Origin: Ostreococcus lucimarinus
Taxonomy: Eukaryota
Direction: 5' to 3' (one strand)
DNA: 64,000 nt
NCBI GenBank assembly: GCA_000092065.1
Contig: CP000589.1
Part shown: positions 4,271 to 59,769 of the stretch, piece after piece
Position numbering within the stretch: the first letter of the stretch is position 1
Layout: every line of letters begins with the position of its first letter
Notes under the pieces: generated by a model
What the model was told of the DNA's origin: nothing
The model's input: only the letters and a program-made list of their open reading frames with translations
Databases searched by the model: none
Made by a program: the position numbers and the translations under genes

Positions 4271-4591
4271 ATGAGCGATGAAGAGGCGCGCGCGAGCGCC
4301 GTGCCGGCGTCGGCGATGCTGTTCGCGGTGCACAAACACCTGCAAACGCGATGCGCGGAGAAGACGAGCGCGTTCTTGAAGTGCAAGAAGGGCGATCAAG
4401 ACCCGGAAAAGTGCCTGCGACAGGGCGCGGCGATGACGGGGTGTCTGGTGGAGGTGCTCAGGGACTTGAAGGCGACGTGTGGGGATGAATTGAACGCGTA
4501 CGCGGAGTGCTTAGATTACAGGAGCAATAACTTTGAAAAGTGTCGGCGGGAACAAGAGGCGTTTGAGACGAAGTGCTCGCTCGGGAAGTAA
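4271..4591 (+). CDS. NDUFA8: NADH dehydrogenase (complex I) subunit NDUFA8/PGIV, double CHCH (twin Cx9C) protein
   Basis: Four Cx9C pairs (CAEKTSAFLKC, CLRQGAAMTGC, CGDELNAYAEC, CRREQEAFETKC). Spacing and flanking residues match NDUFA8 (DP..CL..G; F.EY..CLDY; CR..Q..F..KC). Confidence 0.75.
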   Translation: MSDEEARASAVPASAMLFAVHKHLQTRCAEKTSAFLKCKKGDQDPEKCLRQGAAMTGCLVEVLRDLKATCGDELNAYAECLDYRSNNFEKCRREQEAFETKCSLGK

Positions 4592-17330: not shown

Positions 17331-17635
17331 CGCGTCCGTGCGTCCGTCCGTCCGTCAGTCGTCGGCGTCGTGTGACGCGCGCGCACCCGCGAACGCCCGC
17401 CGCGCATCTCGCGCGCGGCGTCGCGGAATTTGAAATCGCGCCCGCGGCGAGGGCGTTCGGGCGTAGGGTTCGGTGAATGATAAACGATAGAGATAGCGTT
17501 AAGAACGCACTGAATGCGTCGAATGTGGACGTGTTTTGTATTTTCAACGGCGCGACGACGCGCGCGACGCGGTCGGTCGGTCGCTCCGTCGCCGTCTCGC
17601 ACTGCGCGGCGACGGCGACGGCGACGGCGACGGCG

Positions 17636-19012
17636 ATGTCGGACGCCGCGCGCGCGTCGACGCGGACGTCGTCGACATCGCGCCTCGCGCGTCGCGCGGT
17701 GGATCGAAGCGTCCGCGCGAACGACGCGACGACGCGACGGCGACGACGACCGCCGCCGGCGCGCGCTCGAGGCGAAGTGGACACGTGGACAGACGTCACG
17801 CTGCCGCTGAGCGAGGACGCGCGCGAGGCGTTCATGCGAGAGTATTGGCAGAAAAAGCCTCTGCTGATGCGGCAGGCGATACCGAACTTTCGACCGCCGC
17901 TGGATGGGAACGAAATCGCTGGTTTGGCGTGCGAGGAGGACGCGAGCGCGCGCATCTTCGTGCGCGAGGGGGACGACGAGCAGTCGTGGAGGAAGAAGAT
18001 TGGACCGTTCGAAGAAAGTGATTTGACATCCTTACCCGAAGACAAGCCGTGGAGCCTGATCGTTAACGATTTGGACGTGCAGGCGCAACCGTTTGGGGAC
18101 ATGTTGGAACTCTTCAACTGTTTTCCGCGTTGGCGAATTTCTGATATTCAAGCGAGCGTATCACCGGACGGCGGGGGCGTAGGACCGCACTCCGATCACT
18201 TTGATGTATTTCTTCTTCAAGCCGAAGGCGAAAAAGTTTGGGCCGTGGCGGATAACGAGGAGTACTGGCCAGATAATGATGCGGCATTTGTCCCAGAATG
18301 TGAAATTCGCGTGCTCAAAAGCTTTGTCGAGGACGATTCCTTCACGTTGGTTCCGGGTGATATGCTTTACTTGCCCCCCAAAATCGCTCACAACGGCGTG
18401 GCGACGAACTCAAAACCAGGCGTGAGCGTAACGTTGAGTATAGGCTTTCTAGCGCCGACGACGGATGAACTCGTCTTGTCTTACACGCAACGAGCATCTG
18501 AAAAATTGAAGGGCTCGCGTTGGTCCGATCCTTGGCTCAAACCGGTCGAAGACGTCGGTGCAATATCCGCTGAATCTATCACGTATGCATCGGAGATAAT
18601 TAAGCGCACGTATCCGAAGAATGATGCCGAAGTGGCGCGTTGGTTTGGTTGTCACACGACGGCGCGCACCGGCGAGGACGACGACGCGGACGAGAACGAA
18701 GTGAGCATCGAAGAACTATTAGCGGCTTGGGAACACCAAGGTCTAGTCGCGAGAGAAGATTTACGCTTCGCTTTCGTGGAAAAGGTTGCGGATGATAGTT
18801 TGAAGAACGCGCTGTTTTTCGCAAACGGAGAATGTTGGGATGTCGTCAGCCCGGCCGCTGTGAAAACAGCCACCGTCATCGCAAATAGAGGCGAGCTTTA
18901 CGAAGAAGACACGCAGACGGAGGAGTGTGATTTCGATGATGAAGCCTTAAAGCTCGCACTAACGCTATTTGAGCGTGGTTATCTCTATTTCCCCGAGGAT
19001 GAAGACGATTAA
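17636..19012 (+). CDS. Cupin/JmjC-type 2-oxoglutarate oxygenase, RoxA/YcfD-like (ribosomal protein hydroxylase family)
   Basis: N-terminal region follows E. coli YcfD (F.REYWQKKPLLMRQAIPNF..P..GNEIAGLA.EEDASARIF). Includes an HxD...H-type metal-site context (GPHSDHFDVFLLQAEGEKVW...IAHNG). The ORF begins at 17477, and the ATG at 17636 precedes a presequence-like stretch. Confidence 0.65.
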   Translation: MSDAARASTRTSSTSRLARRAVDRSVRANDATTRRRRRPPPARARGEVDTWTDVTLPLSEDAREAFMREYWQKKPLLMRQAIPNFRPPLDGNEIAGLACEEDASARIFVREGDDEQSWRKKIGPFEESDLTSLPEDKPWSLIVNDLDVQAQPFGDMLELFNCFPRWRISDIQASVSPDGGGVGPHSDHFDVFLLQAEGEKVWAVADNEEYWPDNDAAFVPECEIRVLKSFVEDDSFTLVPGDMLYLPPKIAHNGVATNSKPGVSVTLSIGFLAPTTDELVLSYTQRASEKLKGSRWSDPWLKPVEDVGAISAESITYASEIIKRTYPKNDAEVARWFGCHTTARTGEDDDADENEVSIEELLAAWEHQGLVAREDLRFAFVEKVADDSLKNALFFANGECWDVVSPAAVKTATVIANRGELYEEDTQTEECDFDDEALKLALTLFERGYLYFPEDEDD

Positions 19013-19028
19013 TGCTATTCCTAGTGTC

Positions 19029-19743
19029 CTATTGCGCCTCTCGGCTCTTGTCAATCCCCGTTCCCCAAGTACCTCGCGGCGCGTCGCTATATGAAGCTGG
19101 ATCCATTGGATCGAGCGGCTCAGATTCTTTCCTCGCCGGCGCGCGCGCAGCGATAGCTTTCCTTTTCGGTGCACGTTCATGATTCGAGTTGCCCTGCGCG
19201 CCCGACGGACCGATGTCTCGCCGCACGCTCGCCGGTTTGCTCACGGCGGAAGCCTTCGTCTCGACTCGCGCCGTGCCCGTCGCGGTCGATGCTTTCGCTC
19301 GCTGTTGTTTCGTCATGAATGGGTTATCGACGACGTCCAATGAACTCACGCCCGGAGGATACCGACCCAAAATTCGCGAGCAGTGTAAACAGTAACCGTG
19401 CGCCTTCACGAGTCCGCGCCCGAATCCGCCGCACCCCGAGCACCTTCGCATCCCCACCGCCGTCGCACCGTCGCGCGGTCGCTCCCAAGACGTTCTCTGC
19501 GTGTGTGGATTAAAGAAATATTCTCTTCCACTCGCCGGATCCGTCGTCGCTCGCCATCCCGGCGGCAACGGCGTCGCCGCCGGCGGCGGCGGCGGCGGCG
19601 GTCTCGTCTTCTCCGCCTCCACAGGTCGTTCCCACTGCGTCTTATTCAGCGCTTTGTTGTAGTAATACGTCTGTCCGTACGTCGGATCGACTTTCGCTCT
19701 CCACCCTCGCGGCAGCTTCGCGTCGACGTCCGTTCCCGTCCCA

Positions 19744-19774
<31 letters not shown>

Positions 19775-19792
19775 GTCGTCGCTTCGTCGTCG

Positions 19793-19832
<40 letters not shown>

Positions 19833-19892
19833 CGGCACCGCGATCCCTCGCTTCGCCAGTCGCGCCAGCAGCGCTTCCGGGAGCGCGCCCAT
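19029..19892 (-). CDS. PQBP1: Polyglutamine-binding protein 1 homolog (PQBP1), two WW domains
   Basis: N-terminus [11 protein letters not shown] and C-terminus [25 protein letters not shown] match PQBP1 almost exactly. Two WW domains ([31 protein letters not shown]; [31 protein letters not shown]) and acidic DG/ED repeats encoded by (GTCGCC)n/(GTCCTC)n. Confidence 0.8.
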
Positions 19893-20102: not shown

Positions 20103-20175
20103 GGTCGCGCCGACGGCGAACGGCGAACGGCGAACGGCGAACGGCGAACGGCGAACGGCGAACGGCGAACGGCGA
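20103..20175. repeat. Heptanucleotide microsatellite (GAACGGC)n, about 10 units, in the 5' leader of the TPR gene
   Basis: gaacggcgaacggcgaacggcg... read directly. It lies 55 nt upstream of the ATG at 20229. Confidence 0.85.
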
Positions 20176-20228
20176 ACGACGGTTCGAGCGGGCGCGCGCG
20201 CGCGGAATCGAGTCGACCCGCGCGAGCG

Positions 20229-21530
20229 ATGGAAGAGAGCGATGGATGCGCGACGTCGCGAGACTTTGCGAGCGTGAAGATGGAATATTTTAAGACGCGC
20301 GCGCGCGAGGCGCTGGGGAACGGGAACTATAAGGAGGCGTACGCGACGTACACGAAGTGTCTGGAGGAACTCGCGCCGAGGGACGCGGGCGAACGCGCGA
20401 AACTGCTGTGTAACCGTTCGATGGCGTACGCCAAGTCTGCAAACTTTAAAGCGGCGCTGGAGGACGCGTCTGCGGCGGTGTCGTTGATGCCGACGTTCGC
20501 CAAGGGGTGGTGGCGCAAGGCGACCGCGCACGTGGGGCTGCGACAGTTCCCGGACGCGCTCGCCGCGTACAGGCAATCGTTCGAATGTCAGGACGAAGGC
20601 GACGCCGGCGTGATCGACGAGCACGTGAAAGCGATGAATAAAACGATCACTTCATTTACGCGCGAGCAACTTGCGAACTGGATTCTTGAAACTCTGCAAG
20701 ACATGGAGAATCGCGAGCTCATCGAGCACGCGCACCTCGAAAACGTCACGTCGTTGGAGATGGCAGAGGGAATGTTTTGTCAAATCAAAGGCATAAATGA
20801 AGGAAGCAAGCCGCGCGGCGACTACTATCGGTTCGTACAACATTGGAACGTACACGGTATGAGCGTGCCGATGGCTTACACCCAGCGTGCGAGCATGTAC
20901 CGCCACGCGTTGTGCTTTATGCAAGCTCGCGCCGACGCGGCGGCGGCGTTGACCTTGTTACAAGACGACGCATCGCTTTCTGACAAGGAAACGGAGATGA
21001 CCTTCACGTACAAAGTCGATGACTTCTCGCCTTTCAAGGAAGATACAGTCATCACCAAAGCTTGGGCGTGGTACGAGATGGGCAAGGCTTTTGAAGGGCG
21101 CGAAAATGGTGACACGCAAGCGGCGGCGAAGTGCTTCTCGGCGATAACGCACTTGGACACCAAGTATCCGATGTTCACGAACGCCTTCAAGAATGTGTGC
21201 AGTCGTATGACTGATGTCGAGGCTGGGAAAATATTGAGCGACATCAACGATCAGTACGGCGTGGCGGAGTATGGCGTGCGCACCGTTCCCGACGCTTTGG
21301 CAACTTACGTGGTCACCGTCAGCCTTCTCTTCAAAACTGGCAAGCTCGTCGGCTTCAACTCTAAAGTGCGAGACTCGTTTCGAGAAAACGTCGCGAAGGG
21401 TGCGAATGTCATCAAAGAAAAGGTACTCATAGAAAGCGTGCGCTCAAGGTTTCGTGGAGCGCCTGGTGTCGCGCTTTCGTATCGAATTCTCGCCGGCGAA
21501 GATAAATTAAACTCCGAGGTACGTGTTTGA
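20229..21530 (+). CDS. TPR-repeat protein (three N-terminal TPRs, Hop/Sti1-like) with uncharacterised C-terminal domain
   Basis: From the ATG at 20229: MEESDGCATSRDFASVKMEYFKTRAREALGNGNYKEAYATYTKCLEL...AKSANFKAALEDASAAVSLMPTFAKGWWRKATAHVGLRQFPDALAAYRQSFE. Upstream ORF sequence (19398-20228) is repeat/GC artefact. The 3' end carries a consensus donor (GAG|GTACGT) two codons before the stop. See findings. Confidence 0.6.
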   Translation: MEESDGCATSRDFASVKMEYFKTRAREALGNGNYKEAYATYTKCLEELAPRDAGERAKLLCNRSMAYAKSANFKAALEDASAAVSLMPTFAKGWWRKATAHVGLRQFPDALAAYRQSFECQDEGDAGVIDEHVKAMNKTITSFTREQLANWILETLQDMENRELIEHAHLENVTSLEMAEGMFCQIKGINEGSKPRGDYYRFVQHWNVHGMSVPMAYTQRASMYRHALCFMQARADAAAALTLLQDDASLSDKETEMTFTYKVDDFSPFKEDTVITKAWAWYEMGKAFEGRENGDTQAAAKCFSAITHLDTKYPMFTNAFKNVCSRMTDVEAGKILSDINDQYGVAEYGVRTVPDALATYVVTVSLLFKTGKLVGFNSKVRDSFRENVAKGANVIKEKVLIESVRSRFRGAPGVALSYRILAGEDKLNSEVRV

Positions 21531-21559
21531 TATCCGTCGTTCGGCGGCTGGTATTCACG

Positions 21560-22828
21560 ATGTTAGCGCAGAAAATGCTCGAGAAAATTCAAGCACACGA
21601 TTTGATGTTACTGGGTGGCGCAGAAACGGAGGCTGCGATGGGTACGGCGAGCGACGTGCAAGGTGAGTTAATTAAATGGAATAAATTGATGAGGAATTAA
21701 ATAATTCATCACGTAGGCGAGCTCAAGGAACTGAAGTCGGAGGACTTGGTAGATCGCATCAACAACTTACAAGGAATTATCTTATCGACATTAAAAAGTG
21801 GCAAGGAGATCGTAGTCGCGAAGCGACCACCAACCGACATGGAGCTTCCTTACAGAACGTACAAATTAGTTTACAACGACGGCACCCCGGTCGAACGAGT
21901 GAACAAAACGGGCTATCAAATGTCACAAGTGCACTACTCGGCGCAAGGAATGCACAAACGCGAAGTATGGGCTGAGATGATGGTGCGAACGACCGCAATT
22001 AATTATTTACAATTAAATTAAATTTGACACAGGACAAGTCTTGCCGATGGCACCAGAGCTCATCTGAGATAGCCGTTCAAGCGTTACAAGTGCCGAAGGA
22101 CGCCAAGAAGCAAGATTTGGATGTCTGCATCACGCCGTCGACCGTCAGAGTGTCATGTCGAAACACTGGACGCACGTACCTAGAGGTGATTTAAATTAAT
22201 TATTTCTCGACACGCAATTATTTACAATTCATTCGCTATCAGGGAGAGTTATTTCGACAAATCATACCAGAAGAGTCTGCGTGGGTTCACCTTGGTACGT
22301 GACAAATTAAATCAATCTTCACTATCGTTTCGCGATCGAAATTAATTATTTTGCTTCAGGCGGAGAGGATGACGACGGTTTCGTGTTGTACCTGAAGAAG
22401 ATGAACCTGGAGCTTTTCAAAGATAAGAACGCCGCGCCCAGTGATAGCTGGTGGGAACGGCTGTTTAATTCTCATGGAGATATTGCATTCGATGACTACG
22501 ATAAGGATTTCACGGATCTACCCACTCCTATCGCTGAGGTGAGTGTGCTTGTTTGTTTGTATCTCCTGTTTGAGCACCGCACTGACCAACTGCATTGCGC
22601 CCGACATAGTCCATCGCAGCCGCCGAAGATGCGTCAAGTGTACTGCAGGCGAGAGAAGAGGAAGAATATAAGGAGCGCGAAGCCGCACGCGAACGTGATG
22701 ACCTCCGAAAGCGCGAGAGACAAGTGCGCCTGGCTGAACTTCGCGGGGGCAAGTATTTGTCGTGGGTTGAGCTCGACAGACGCAATCCCGCGCCGAATCC
22801 TCTGGCACAACGCAGCGAGCCTGCGTAA
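21560..22828 (+). CDS. CS (p23/HSP20-like) domain protein, six exons with five short AT-rich introns
   Basis: Exons placed by eye: 21560-21662, 21717-21982, 22033-22185, 22243-22294, 22360-22538, 22610-22828. Introns are 54, 50, 57, 65 and 71 nt with GTGAGT/GTGCGA/GTGATT/GTACGT/GTGAGT donors and YAG acceptors, and phases are consistent. The spliced product contains a CS-domain signature (CRWHQSSSEIAVQALQVPKDAKKQDLDVCITPSTVRVS...YLEGELFRQIIPEESAWVHLGGEDDDGFVLYLKKMNLELFKDKNAAPSDSWWERLF) and a charged coiled-coil tail. Confidence 0.6.
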
Positions 22829-58815: not shown

Positions 58816-59526
58816 ATGGCGGACGACGCCGGCGACGCCGTCGCGAACCCCGCGAGCGCGATGCGCGCGCTCGGCGTCGACGACGCCGCGCGCGCGCTGT
58901 CGCAGGGCGCCGAAGCGCGCGTCTTCGCGCTCGAATTCTGCGGGCGGGACGCGATTTGTAAGCAGCGATTCGCGAAAAAGTACCGCTTGCCGGCGCTGGA
59001 CGAACGGCTGACGCGAGCGAGATTGGTGGGAGAGGCGAGGGCGATCGTGCGGGCGCGAAAACTGGGCGTGCGAGCGCCGATGGTGCTGCACGTGGACGCG
59101 AACGAGGCGTGCGTGTACATGGAACGCGTGGCGGGCGTGGCGCTGAAGGAGGCGCTGCGGCGAGAGACGTGCACGAGGGAAGACATCGCGAGGTACGGAA
59201 GAGAGATCGGAGAGGCGATAAGTAAATTGCACGACGGCGGTCTCGTGCACGGGGACTTGACGACGAGTAATTTCATGGTGAGAGACGACGACGGCGCCGT
59301 CGTCGTCATCGATTTCGGTTTGAGCTACCCTAGCGCGGTGCCCGAAGACAAGGGCGTGGATTTATACGTTCTCGAGCGCGCCATCAACGCCGCGCACCCA
59401 TCGCAAACCGAGCTGTTCGATGAAATCATAGCGACGTACAAAAAAACGTCAAAGATGTGGTGCGCGACGCTGAATAGATTCGCCGAGGTTCGCGCGAGAG
59501 GACGCAAACGCTCGATGGTGGGTTAA
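58816..59526 (+). CDS. BUD32: KEOPS/EKC complex kinase Bud32 (PRPK/TP53RK)
   Basis: SQGAEARVF..., KQRFAKKYRLPALDERLTRARLVGEARAIVRARKLGVRAP, LHDGGLVHGDLTTSNFMV, VVIDFGLSYPSAVPEDKGVDLYVLERA, and C-terminus EVRARGRKRSMVG. All are near-identical to human PRPK segments recalled from memory. Confidence 0.85.
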   Translation: MADDAGDAVANPASAMRALGVDDAARALSQGAEARVFALEFCGRDAICKQRFAKKYRLPALDERLTRARLVGEARAIVRARKLGVRAPMVLHVDANEACVYMERVAGVALKEALRRETCTREDIARYGREIGEAISKLHDGGLVHGDLTTSNFMVRDDDGAVVVIDFGLSYPSAVPEDKGVDLYVLERAINAAHPSQTELFDEIIATYKKTSKMWCATLNRFAEVRARGRKRSMVG

Positions 59527-59769
59527 AAAATCCCTCGCGCCTCGTTTTCAGCGCGCGCGTGTCACACTCATAGTCTTAGGCATCACTCTTCCCATCATTT
59601 TCCGTTTTCGCGCGTTCGAGCGATGCGAGTGTCGATGTGACGCCGATTCGCCAAACGCGGCCTCGCGCCAGCTTTGGCTATCCACACATCCTATCCAACC
59701 GCGCGCCATCGCGCCACTTCCATTCGCGTCTTCGCGTTTCCGCGCCCGAGCGCTCGCGCGCATCGAACG

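What the first reader, a model, noticed from the sequence alone, without database searches (positions are those of the whole stretch)
21504..21575. Possible splice-mediated fusion of the TPR gene with the downstream CS-domain gene
The TPR ORF ends ...NSE then GTACGTGTT TGA. That is a consensus 5' splice site (GAG|GTACGT) in phase 0, two codons before the stop. A YAG acceptor at 21570-21571 (gttagcgcag|AAAATGCTCGAG) joins in frame into the first exon of the CS-domain gene. The joined sequence reads ...LNSE-KMLEKIQAHDLMLLGG.... A TPR plus CS-domain architecture occurs in co-chaperones such as the SGT1 and DYX1C1 types. The alternative is two independent genes 30 nt apart.
Basis: inference. Interest (0 to 1): 0.5.

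Follow-up and report, generated by a model that had tools for sequence, protein, structure and literature searches.

The report
Ordinary intron joining two exons
The "TPR gene" and the "CS-domain gene" are two parts of one conserved green-algal gene, separated by a normal 53-base intron, and the same gene model is already annotated in Ostreococcus tauri, so the finding is correct but ordinary.

Summary
GAG|GTACGT lies at 21516-21524, the acceptor CAG ends at 21571, and removing 21519-21571 (53 nt) joins the two ORFs in frame.

Comparative evidence shows this is intron 1 of a single 7-exon gene (20229-22828, 749 aa):
- The O. tauri orthologue (CEF98972.1/XP_022839573.1, 750 aa) is 72% identical over 99% of the length and is annotated with exactly the homologous splice.
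- In 6 further syntenic Mamiellales loci, AG|GT and GCAG| are invariant at the same codon boundaries. The spacer is 50-57 nt, with lengths of all three classes mod 3.
- The window's ATG at 21575 is a Leu codon in all six other lineages, and three lineages have no in-frame ATG at all.
- One relative (L008, P0070) carries the whole region as one uninterrupted genomic ORF.
- Full-length one-piece homologues of 680-830 aa exist in Trebouxiophyceae, Picochlorum and a haptophyte.
- In an AlphaFold model the junction falls inside a helix of a compact alpha/beta domain.

The product has an Hsp70/90-cochaperone-type TPR domain and a NudC-like CS domain. It is not SGT1 or DYX1C1.

No transcript spanning this exact junction was found.

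Side observation: introns 2-5 of this gene carry a conserved AATTAATT-type motif, while introns 1 and 6 do not.

The parts
20229..21518 (+). Exon 1 (aa 1-430). It encodes the N-terminal 3-repeat TPR domain, a helical region and the first three strands of an alpha/beta domain.
   Evidence: ORF translation. Pfam TPR_2 at aa 57-89. PDB sequence hits to HOP, SGTA, PP5 and RPAP3 TPR domains for aa 12-136. 58-72% identical orthologues. The start at 20229 is supported by conserved (F)ETS(R/S)DF upstream of Met18 in orthologues. An alternative start at 20280 is not excluded.
21519..21571 (+). Intron 1, the subject of the finding. It is 53 nt, phase 0, with donor GTACGT, acceptor GCGCAG and an in-frame TGA at 21528-21530.
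   Evidence: AG|GT and GCAG| are invariant in 7 lineages. Length is 50-57 nt, with lengths mod 3 of 0, 1 and 2. Interior identity is 0.41, against 0.75 and 0.59 at codon positions 1+2 of the flanking exons. The O. tauri annotated protein uses the homologous splice.
21572..21662 (+). Exon 2 (aa 431-460 plus the first base of codon 461). It encodes the second half of helix 426-437 and helix 446-453 of the alpha/beta domain.
   Evidence: The peptide (E/K)L(V/L/M).(K/R)(I/L)...LLGG...MG.PS is conserved in 7 lineages with a coding-type substitution pattern.
21663..21716 (+). Intron 2 (54 nt, GC 0.26, AATTAA-rich).
   Evidence: The orthologous intron is removed in a spliced Logan contig of a sister lineage (L009 compared with L002).
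21717..21982 (+). Exon 3.
   Evidence: It aligns without gaps to the O. tauri 750-aa protein.
21983..22032 (+). Intron 3 (50 nt, GC 0.30, AATTAA-rich).
22033..22185 (+). Exon 4 (start of the CS domain).
22186..22242 (+). Intron 4 (57 nt, GC 0.28, AATTAA-rich).
22243..22294 (+). Exon 5 (CS domain).
22295..22359 (+). Intron 5 (65 nt, GC 0.32, AATTAA-rich).
22360..22538 (+). Exon 6 (end of the CS domain and the conserved WW.RLF...DDY(D/E)KD(F/Y)(S/T)DLP segment).
   Evidence: and the invariant columns.
22539..22609 (+). Intron 6 (71 nt, GC 0.51, CTGAC branch-like site, no AATTAA motif).
22610..22828 (+). Exon 7 (long C-terminal helix). The stop TAA is at 22826-22828.
   Evidence: the spliced CDS is 2250 nt, i.e. 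749 codons plus the stop. The model shows helix 673-723.

Best explanation
Positions 21519-21571 are a normal U2-type GT-AG spliceosomal intron (53 nt, phase 0). It is the first of six introns in one protein-coding gene spanning 20229-22828 on the + strand. The window comes from an Ostreococcus-like (Mamiellales) green alga.

The spliced mRNA encodes a 749-aa protein with these parts, in order:
- an N-terminal three-repeat TPR domain of the Hsp70/Hsp90-cochaperone type
- a further helical region
- a small alpha/beta domain, which the intron interrupts
- a NudC-like CS (p23/HSP20-like beta-sandwich) domain
- a long C-terminal helix

The upstream ORF looks like a separate 433-aa 'TPR gene' only because the unspliced intron contains an in-frame TGA.

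What is shown: the splice-site geometry, its conservation, the one-piece orthologues and the domain content.

What is inferred: that the intron is actually removed in this organism, and that the protein acts as a chaperone adaptor. In that role the TPR would dock on Hsp70/Hsp90 C-termini and the CS domain would bind Hsp90 or a client.
For: 1. Orthologue annotation.
- O. tauri CEF98972.1/XP_022839573.1 (750 aa) matches the spliced product at 72% identity over 99% of its length.
- It reads KLKSE|ELVIRAQSLEVNLLGG. This is exactly exon-1 end plus exon-2 start of the homologous GT(4294)...AG(4348) intron in L001.
- A second strain's annotation (OUS49016.1) is also 750 aa.
- That annotation was manually curated, and 89% of its introns were validated by RNA-seq (PMC4378021).

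2. Splice-site conservation. This holds in seven lineages with identical gene neighbours (JmjC, WW, this gene, a ~160-aa gene, RPN1).
- AG|GT directly follows the last conserved codon, and GCAG| directly precedes the first conserved codon of exon 2.
- The spacer is 50-57 nt, within the 50-71 nt range of the gene's other introns. Lengths mod 3 are 0, 1 and 2.
- Flanking exons show coding-type conservation: positions 1+2 at 0.75 and 0.59, against position 3 at 0.44 and 0.34. The intron interior is 0.41.

3. No conserved start for a stand-alone CS gene.
- ATG 21575 is a Leu codon in all six other lineages.
- L004, L005 and L006 have no in-frame ATG between the donor and exon 2.
- In L006 and L007 the exon-1 ORF runs 139 and 105 nt past the acceptor.
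- In L002 the only candidate ATG overlaps the stop codon.

4. A relative without the intron. L008 is a genomic contig with WW/JmjC/RFC neighbours. It has one uninterrupted ORF aligned to fused aa 315-742 (E 3e-92). Its full-length form P0070 is a single 825-aa ORF.

5. One-piece homologues. Proteins of 680-830 aa cover query aa ~11-743 in a single stretch. They occur in Apatococcus, Picochlorum, Diacronema and many transcript contigs. All 18 aligned homologues carry CS, and 14 carry TPR_2.

6. Structure. In the AF2 model (pLDDT 78) the junction 430|431 sits inside helix 426-437 of the domain E359-368/H378-392/E399-406/E414-423/H426-437/H446-453/E458-466. Local pLDDT there is 82-89.
Against: - No RNA evidence exists for this junction in this organism.
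- A search with a junction-spanning peptide found no transcript-derived ORF crossing it in close relatives.
- The one spliced transcript contig found (L009) begins 22 nt downstream of the acceptor.
- Four Ostreococcus lineages, including the window (ATG 21560), have an ATG in frame with exon 2 at 12-24 nt upstream of the acceptor. An internal start therefore cannot be excluded on sequence alone in those species.
- Intron 1 is GC-richer (0.53) than introns 2-5 (0.26-0.32).
- Very short spacers between genes do occur in this genome, for example 16 nt between the convergent ORFs at 19012 and 19029. Spacer length alone is not an argument.
Confidence: 0.93

Rival explanations
1. There are two independent, tandem genes. 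A 433-aa TPR protein ends at TGA 21530. A separate CS-domain protein starts at ATG 21560 or 21575, with its own promoter in or upstream of the 29-44 nt spacer.
For: - Both ORFs are formally complete in the window: there is a stop at 21528-21530, and in-frame ATGs at 21560 and 21575.
- Prokaryote-style gene callers report the 433-aa product on many metagenome contigs.
- The genome is very compact.
Against: - The ATG codons are not conserved. 21575 is Leu in 6 of 6 other lineages, and three lineages have no in-frame ATG. In two lineages the ORFs would overlap by more than 100 nt, and in one the ATG overlaps the stop.
- Coding-type conservation runs right up to both splice sites.
- An intron-less relative and distant homologues encode one polypeptide.
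- The split would cut a predicted helix and separate the last strand from its domain.
- The TPR-only database entries are artefacts of callers that cannot splice. All of them end with read-through of the intron (...SE|V...).
Confidence: 0.02
2. It is one gene, but intron 1 is a regulated retention switch. The spliced mRNA gives the 749-aa TPR-CS protein. The intron-retaining mRNA gives a functional 433-aa TPR-only isoform that could compete for chaperone binding.
For: - In the window, retention terminates translation three codons after the donor and leaves the TPR and helical region intact.
- Intron retention is documented in Mamiellales, especially for short introns in the mating-type region (PMC13298755).
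Against: - The retained product is not conserved. Retention gives a stop after 3 to 13 codons in five lineages (window, L001, L002, L004, L005), a 62-residue frame-shifted tail in L006, and an in-frame 17-aa insertion in L007.
- The truncated protein would end inside the alpha/beta domain.
- The donor (GAG|GTACGT) is a strong consensus site.
- In O. tauri the orthologue lies on CAID01000009.2. From my own knowledge that is not chromosome 2, which carries the mating-type-like region where retention is high.
Confidence: 0.04
3. It is one gene but with different splice sites. The old ab initio models (P0013 in O. tauri, 763 aa; P0024 in a sister lineage, 749 aa) read into the intron and skip exon 2.
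For: Two older database models join the halves in this way.
Against: - The exon-2 peptide is conserved in 7 lineages with a coding substitution pattern.
- It has counterparts in the intron-less P0070 and in distant homologues.
- The old models also retain other introns as coding sequence, whereas the spliced transcript contig L009/P0064 removes them.
- The curated O. tauri v2 model replaced the old one.
Confidence: 0.01

Closest known systems
Ostreococcus tauri 'Tetratricopeptide repeat' protein CEF98972.1 / XP_022839573.1 (750 aa; also OUS49016.1, auto-named 'Hsc70/Hsp90-organizing protein HOP')
   Same: It is the orthologue. It is 72% identical over 99% of the length, has the same gene neighbours, has the same intron position at the TPR/CS junction, and shares the TPR...CS architecture.
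   Different: It comes from a different species. Its intron 1 is 55 nt rather than 53 nt, and exon 2 begins EL... rather than KM.... No experimental characterisation was found.
SGT1 (TPR-CS-SGS co-chaperone of Hsp90)
   Same: It has an N-terminal three-repeat TPR domain followed by a CS domain. The SGT1 TPR is a weak sequence hit (9uib, E 1.5e-5).
   Different: - No SGS domain is present in any of the 18 homologues.
- About 430 residues separate the TPR and CS domains.
- The CS fold is closest to NudC.
- The protein is about twice the size of SGT1.
NudC family (NudC, NUDCD2/3) CS-domain proteins
   Same: - The CS beta-sandwich best matches the human NudC CS domain (3qor: TM 0.70 normalised to the target, 25% identity, E 5e-5).
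- Weak sequence hits go to NUDCD2 and NudC (E 0.03-0.09).
- The WW.RL motif after the sandwich resembles NudC. This last point is from my own recollection and was not tested.
   Different: NudC proteins have no TPR domain, and NudC has an N-terminal coiled coil. The sequence similarity is below significance.
DYX1C1/DNAAF4
   Same: It contains both a CS domain and TPR repeats.
   Different: The order is reversed: CS is N-terminal and TPR is C-terminal in DNAAF4 (general knowledge). That protein serves dynein-arm assembly, and Ostreococcus has no flagella (general knowledge).
HOP/STI1, SGTA, PP5 and RPAP3/SPAG1 TPR domains (carboxylate-clamp TPRs that bind the EEVD tails of Hsp70/Hsp90)
   Same: - These are the best PDB sequence and fold hits for aa 12-136 (HOP 1.1e-18; SGTA TM 0.83).
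- In the HOP TPR1 alignment, K22, N62, K92 and R96 align with clamp residues K8, N43, K73 and R77. The clamp residue identities are from my own knowledge of Scheufler et al. 2000.
- K92 and R96 are nearly invariant in the family.
   Different: - The fifth clamp position (HOP N12) is Arg here.
- There is only one such TPR domain.
- No DP/STI1 domains are present.

Membership tests
U2-type GT-AG spliceosomal intron | GT at the 5' end within a donor consensus, and AG at the 3' end. | tested here: met
   GAG|GTACGT is at 21516-21524 and GCGCAG| ends at 21571. AG|GT and GCAG| are invariant in 7 lineages.
U2-type GT-AG spliceosomal intron | Length and phase compatible with the organism's introns and with an open reading frame after removal. 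| tested here: met
   The intron is 53 nt, and the five other introns of the gene are 50-71 nt. It is phase 0, and the spliced CDS is 2250 nt with no internal stop.
U2-type GT-AG spliceosomal intron | Non-coding evolution of the interior, with coding evolution of the flanks. | tested here: met
   The interior has identity 0.41, indels that are not multiples of 3, and in-frame stops in 5 of 7 lineages. The flanks have positions 1+2 at 0.75 and 0.59, against position 3 at 0.44 and 0.34.
U2-type GT-AG spliceosomal intron | Branch-point sequence upstream of the acceptor. | tested here: inconclusive
   TGAC/TGAT/TTAC-like elements lie about 13-20 nt before the AG in most lineages. The window has only CACGAT. 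No organism-specific branch-site model was available.
U2-type GT-AG spliceosomal intron | Removal from the mature mRNA. | not testable with these tools
   No junction-spanning transcript was found. L009 starts 22 nt after the acceptor. The only support is indirect, through the curated O. tauri model.
Orthologue group of O. tauri CEF98972.1 (Mamiellales TPR-CS protein) | Full-length similarity and conserved gene neighbourhood. | tested here: met
   72% identity over 99% coverage. The JmjC / WW(-) / gene / ~160-aa(-) / RPN1(-) order is present in the window and in L001-L007.
SGT1 | C-terminal SGS domain after the CS domain. | tested here: not met
   There is no SGS hit in the window protein (E<=0.1) or in any of the 18 homologues (E<=0.01). 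The C-terminus is a single long helix.
SGT1 | TPR domain followed by a CS domain. | tested here: met
   TPR at aa 13-119 and CS at aa ~544-631, but they are separated by about 430 residues.
DYX1C1/DNAAF4 | CS domain N-terminal, TPR repeats C-terminal. | tested here: not met
   The order here is TPR first and CS last.
HOP/STI1 | Three TPR domains (TPR1, 2A, 2B) plus DP/STI1 domains. | tested here: not met
   Only one cochaperone-type TPR domain matches (aa 12-136). There are no STI1/DP Pfam hits. The name 'HOP' on OUS49016.1 is an automatic label.
NudC family | NudC-type CS domain. | tested here: inconclusive
   The fold match to 3qor has TM 0.66-0.71 and E 5e-5. Sequence E-values are only 0.03-0.09.

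The most novel reading that the evidence does not exclude
The gene may contain two mechanistically different intron classes that have coexisted since before the Mamiellales lineages diverged.

- Introns 1 and 6 look canonical: GC about 0.5 and CTGAC-type branch sites.
- Introns 2-5 are 50-65 nt, AT-rich, and packed with a conserved palindromic AATTAATT-type motif.
- This motif is otherwise almost absent from the window (7 copies in about 61 kb) and from the flanks of the orthologous loci.
- The nucleotide-invariant GATAAATTAAA at the end of exon 1, 8 nt before the donor (it ends at 21510), could be an exonic copy of the same element that helps define intron 1.

If the motif is a cis-acting splicing (or other RNA/DNA-binding) signal, it would be a specific recognition element for the small AT-rich introns of Mamiellales. 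No motif has been reported for those introns (PMC3491373).
Probability: 0.2. Interest if true: 0.45.

Novelty: already known. Interest (0 to 1): 0.1.

Why it matters
For annotation, it means the window has one 749-aa gene at 20229-22828, not a 433-aa TPR gene plus a ~320-aa CS gene. The many TPR-only entries in metagenome protein catalogues are truncation artefacts of gene callers that cannot splice.

Biologically, the gene belongs to an uncharacterised but widely conserved family. It combines a TPR domain, an alpha/beta domain and a NudC-like CS domain, and it occurs in green algae and at least one haptophyte. The domain content suggests an Hsp70/Hsp90 adaptor.

Nothing about the splice itself is unusual.

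Tried and rejected
- A search with a 149-aa junction-spanning peptide for transcript-derived ORFs that cross the junction returned only exon-3 fragments.
- The spliced Logan contig L009 (SRR28369142) proves removal of intron 2 in a sister lineage, but it starts 22 nt after the intron-1 acceptor. It says nothing about intron 1.
- A fold search against afdb50 was not available.
- PDB sequence search of the C-terminal half gave only sub-threshold NudC/NUDCD2 hits.
- A second site in the window with the same formal pattern (donor 59518, acceptor 59579) was inspected. It looks like chance because the downstream sequence does not look coding.
- Spacer length as an argument against two genes was dropped, because convergent genes in the window lie only 16 nt apart.
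- SGT1, DYX1C1 and HOP membership were each tested and rejected.
- I did not determine the species. It is Ostreococcus-like, but no named genome in the searched collections carries the identical protein.
Full report
**1. What is in the sequence**

The window is eukaryotic, with GC 0.49-0.68 and short introns. An ORF starts at ATG 20229 and reads to ...LNSE, with the GAG codon at 21516-21518. It then continues GTA CGT GTT TGA, so the stop is at 21528-21530.

- GTACGT at 21519-21524 is a consensus donor in phase 0.
- GCGCAG ends at 21571.

There are two minor corrections. Three codons, not two, lie between the donor and the stop. The stop-to-ATG distance is 44 nt (ATG 21575), or 29 nt to an ATG at 21560 that lies inside the candidate intron.

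Five further GT-AG introns of 50-71 nt lie downstream: 21663-21716, 21983-22032, 22186-22242, 22295-22359 and 22539-22609. With these the spliced CDS is 2250 nt, i.e. 749 codons plus TAA at 22826-22828. Pfam finds TPR_2 at aa 57-89 and CS at aa 553-615.

**2. Is it more than chance?**

The window has 141 ORFs of at least 150 codons. Two have a phase-0 GTRNGT in the last five codons followed 45-75 nt later by a YAG that opens at least 30 codons. One is this site. The other (59518/59579) does not look coding downstream. The pattern alone is suggestive only, and the decisive evidence is comparative.

**3. Orthologues**

A search of 5.8 billion proteins with the spliced product returned O. tauri CEF98972.1/XP_022839573.1. 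It is 750 aa and 72% identical over 99% of the query. A second O. tauri strain has the same 750-aa model (OUS49016.1).

The O. tauri protein reads KLKSE|ELVIRAQSLEVNLLGG. In the genomic locus L001 this is precisely exon-1 end plus the sequence after a GTAAGT...GCGCAG interval of 55 nt, at the position homologous to the window's candidate intron. That annotation was manually curated, and 89% of its introns are reported as validated by RNA-seq (PMC4378021). I could not check this particular intron.

All other close hits are 433-496-aa 'TPR proteins' from metagenome gene callers. Every one ends with ...(S/A)(E/Q) followed by V..., which is read-through of the GT of the intron. They are artefacts of software that cannot splice.

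**4. Seven lineages compared**

I fetched six further loci (L001, L002/L003, L004, L005, L006, L007). All have the same neighbours as the window: a JmjC gene, a WW gene on the minus strand, this gene, a ~160-aa gene on the minus strand, and RPN1 on the minus strand.

- In all seven lineages AG|GT follows the last conserved codon and GCAG| precedes the first conserved codon of exon 2.
- The interval is 53, 55, 53, 57, 50, 50 and 51 nt, so lengths mod 3 are 2, 1, 2, 0, 2, 2 and 0.
- Pairwise identity at codon positions 1+2 versus position 3 is 0.75 versus 0.44 in the last 60 nt of exon 1.
- It is 0.59 versus 0.34 in the first 60 nt of exon 2. The interior of the interval is 0.41.
- Coding constraint therefore extends to both boundaries and stops there.

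**5. No conserved start for a separate CS gene**

- The window's ATG 21575 corresponds to a Leu codon (TTA, CTT, TTG, CTA, TTG, CTT) in the six other lineages.
- L004, L005 and L006 have no in-frame ATG between the donor and exon 2.
- In L006 and L007 the exon-1 reading frame runs 139 and 105 nt beyond the acceptor.
- In L002 the only candidate ATG overlaps the stop (TGATG).
- Four Ostreococcus-like lineages do have an ATG 12-24 nt upstream of the acceptor, in frame with exon 2. This lies in the TGAT/TGAC region where a branch site is expected, and it is absent from the other three lineages.

**6. Relatives without the intron, and distant homologues**

L008 is a genomic metagenome contig with WW, JmjC and RFC neighbours. 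It carries one uninterrupted ORF, open to the contig end, that aligns to fused residues 315-742 (38% identity, E 3e-92). Its full-length form P0070 is a single 825-aa ORF found on contigs up to 755 kb.

An exhaustive HMMER search of 1.84 billion representatives found many proteins of 680-830 aa that match query residues ~11-743 in one stretch. They include:
- Apatococcus lobatus KAK9835735.1
- Picochlorum KAI8111066.1
- a Diacronema lutheri EukProt model
- numerous transcript-length contigs

A MAFFT alignment shows them running straight across the junction. The TPR-CS arrangement is thus the ancestral single gene, not a fusion.

**7. Structure**

An AlphaFold2 model was built from 18 full-length homologues (A1; mean pLDDT 78, pTM 0.62). 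It shows:
- TPR and further helices at 13-346
- a beta-alpha-beta-beta-alpha-alpha-beta domain at 359-466, with pLDDT mostly 74-89
- a CS beta-sandwich at 544-631
- a long helix at 673-723

The junction 430|431 lies inside helix 426-437. The last strand of that domain (458-466) is encoded by exons 2 and 3. Two separate genes would cut this domain. This is a model-based inference.

**8. What the protein resembles**

PDB sequence hits are confined to aa 12-136 and go to the Hsp70/Hsp90-binding TPR domains of HOP (1e-18), SPAG1, PP5, SGTA, RPAP3 and SGT1. Fold search agrees (SGTA and Sgt2 TM 0.8+) and matches the CS domain best to human NudC (3qor, TM 0.70). Sequence similarity to NudC/NUDCD2 is sub-threshold.

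Four of the five HOP-TPR1 clamp positions align with identical residues (K22, N62, K92, R96), and the fifth is Arg. The identity of the clamp residues is from my own knowledge.

- No SGS, DP/STI1 or other domain is detected in any homologue, so it is not SGT1 or HOP.
- The domain order excludes DYX1C1.
- The likely role as a chaperone adaptor is inferred from domain content only.

**9. Rivals**

- Two independent genes: contradicted by sections 3-7.
- A regulated retention isoform: not excluded, but the retained product differs completely between lineages.
- The old ab initio models that skip exon 2 (P0013, P0024): contradicted by conservation of exon 2 and by the spliced contig L009/P0064.

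**10. Seen in passing**

- The hexamer AATTAA/TTAATT occurs 21 times in the window. Fourteen copies lie in this gene and twelve of those lie in introns 2-5.
- In the orthologous loci, 14/14, 15/15, 14/14, 19/20, 14/18 and 15/15 copies lie within the gene span, in the same introns.
- Introns 1 and 6 lack the motif. Intron 6 carries a CTGAC-type (CTAAC in O. tauri) element and intron 1 a weaker TGAC/TGAT-like one (see section 5).
- The end of exon 1, GATAAATTAAA, is nucleotide-invariant in 6 of 7 lineages, synonymous sites included. The seventh lineage (L005) has GAATTAATTA just inside intron 1.
- These introns look like the small AT-rich introns described for the Mamiellales low-GC chromosome region, for which no motif was reported (PMC3491373). 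The O. tauri orthologue, however, is on CAID01000009.2.

**11. Verdict**

It is an ordinary intron in a gene whose orthologue is already annotated in this way. Interest is low. The remaining gap is direct RNA evidence in this organism.

Noticed in passing
window 21663-21716, 21983-22032, 22186-22242, 22295-22359 (introns 2-5), and the orthologous introns in L001, L002, L004-L007: These four short AT-rich introns are packed with a palindromic AATTAATT/AATTAAAT-type motif. Of 21 AATTAA/TTAATT hexamers in the 64-kb window, 14 are in this gene and 12 of those are in these introns. In six orthologous loci, 14/14, 15/15, 14/14, 19/20, 14/18 and 15/15 copies lie in the gene span. Introns 1 and 6 lack the motif and have CTGAC/TGAC-like branch sites, so two intron classes coexist in one gene across Mamiellales.
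   Followed up: partly
window 21500-21510 (GATAAATTAAA, end of exon 1): This AT-rich stretch lies 8 nt upstream of the intron-1 donor. It is nucleotide-invariant in 6 of 7 lineages, including synonymous positions (TTA Leu, AAA Lys, GAT Asp). The one lineage lacking it (L005) has GAATTAATTA just inside intron 1. It may be an exonic copy of the intronic motif.
   Followed up: partly
window 20113-20178: A perfect heptanucleotide microsatellite (ACGGCGA) x 9.4 lies 51 nt upstream of the start codon. It sits in the 336-nt divergent spacer between the WW-domain gene (minus strand, ATG at 19892) and this gene.
   Followed up: no
window 19747-19830: An imperfect TCG trinucleotide array of about 29 copies lies inside the N-terminal coding part of the minus-strand WW-domain gene. 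It encodes an acidic low-complexity tract.
   Followed up: no
L008 1-1425 and protein P0070 (825 aa): A more distant Mamiellales-like relative carries the whole gene as one uninterrupted ORF, with none of the six introns in the region compared. The introns were therefore either gained in the Ostreococcus-side lineages or lost in that relative.
   Followed up: partly
L006 about 4452-4495 (orthologous intron 2): This intron appears to begin with GC (GACAG|GCAAGT) rather than GT, which would make it a GC-AG intron in that lineage. The boundary was read by eye from a tblastn gap and was not verified.
   Followed up: no
window 21560-21562, L001, L002, L007 (12-24 nt upstream of the intron-1 acceptor): Four Ostreococcus-like lineages have an ATG inside intron 1 in frame with exon 2. 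It is absent in L004, L005 and L006. It is probably a by-product of a TGAT/TGAC branch-site-like element, but it would allow translation of the CS part from an unspliced or internally initiated RNA.
   Followed up: partly
window 59518-59579: This is the only other place in the window where a long ORF ends just after a phase-0 GTRNGT with a YAG 45-75 nt downstream. The downstream sequence does not look coding, so it is probably chance.
   Followed up: partly
window 19012-19029: The convergent ORFs at 17477-19012 (+) and 19029-19892 (-) lie at the positions of the JmjC and WW genes in the orthologous loci. They are separated by only 16 nt, so their 3' UTRs must overlap. This fits the overlapping UTRs reported for O. 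tauri (PMC4378021).
   Followed up: no
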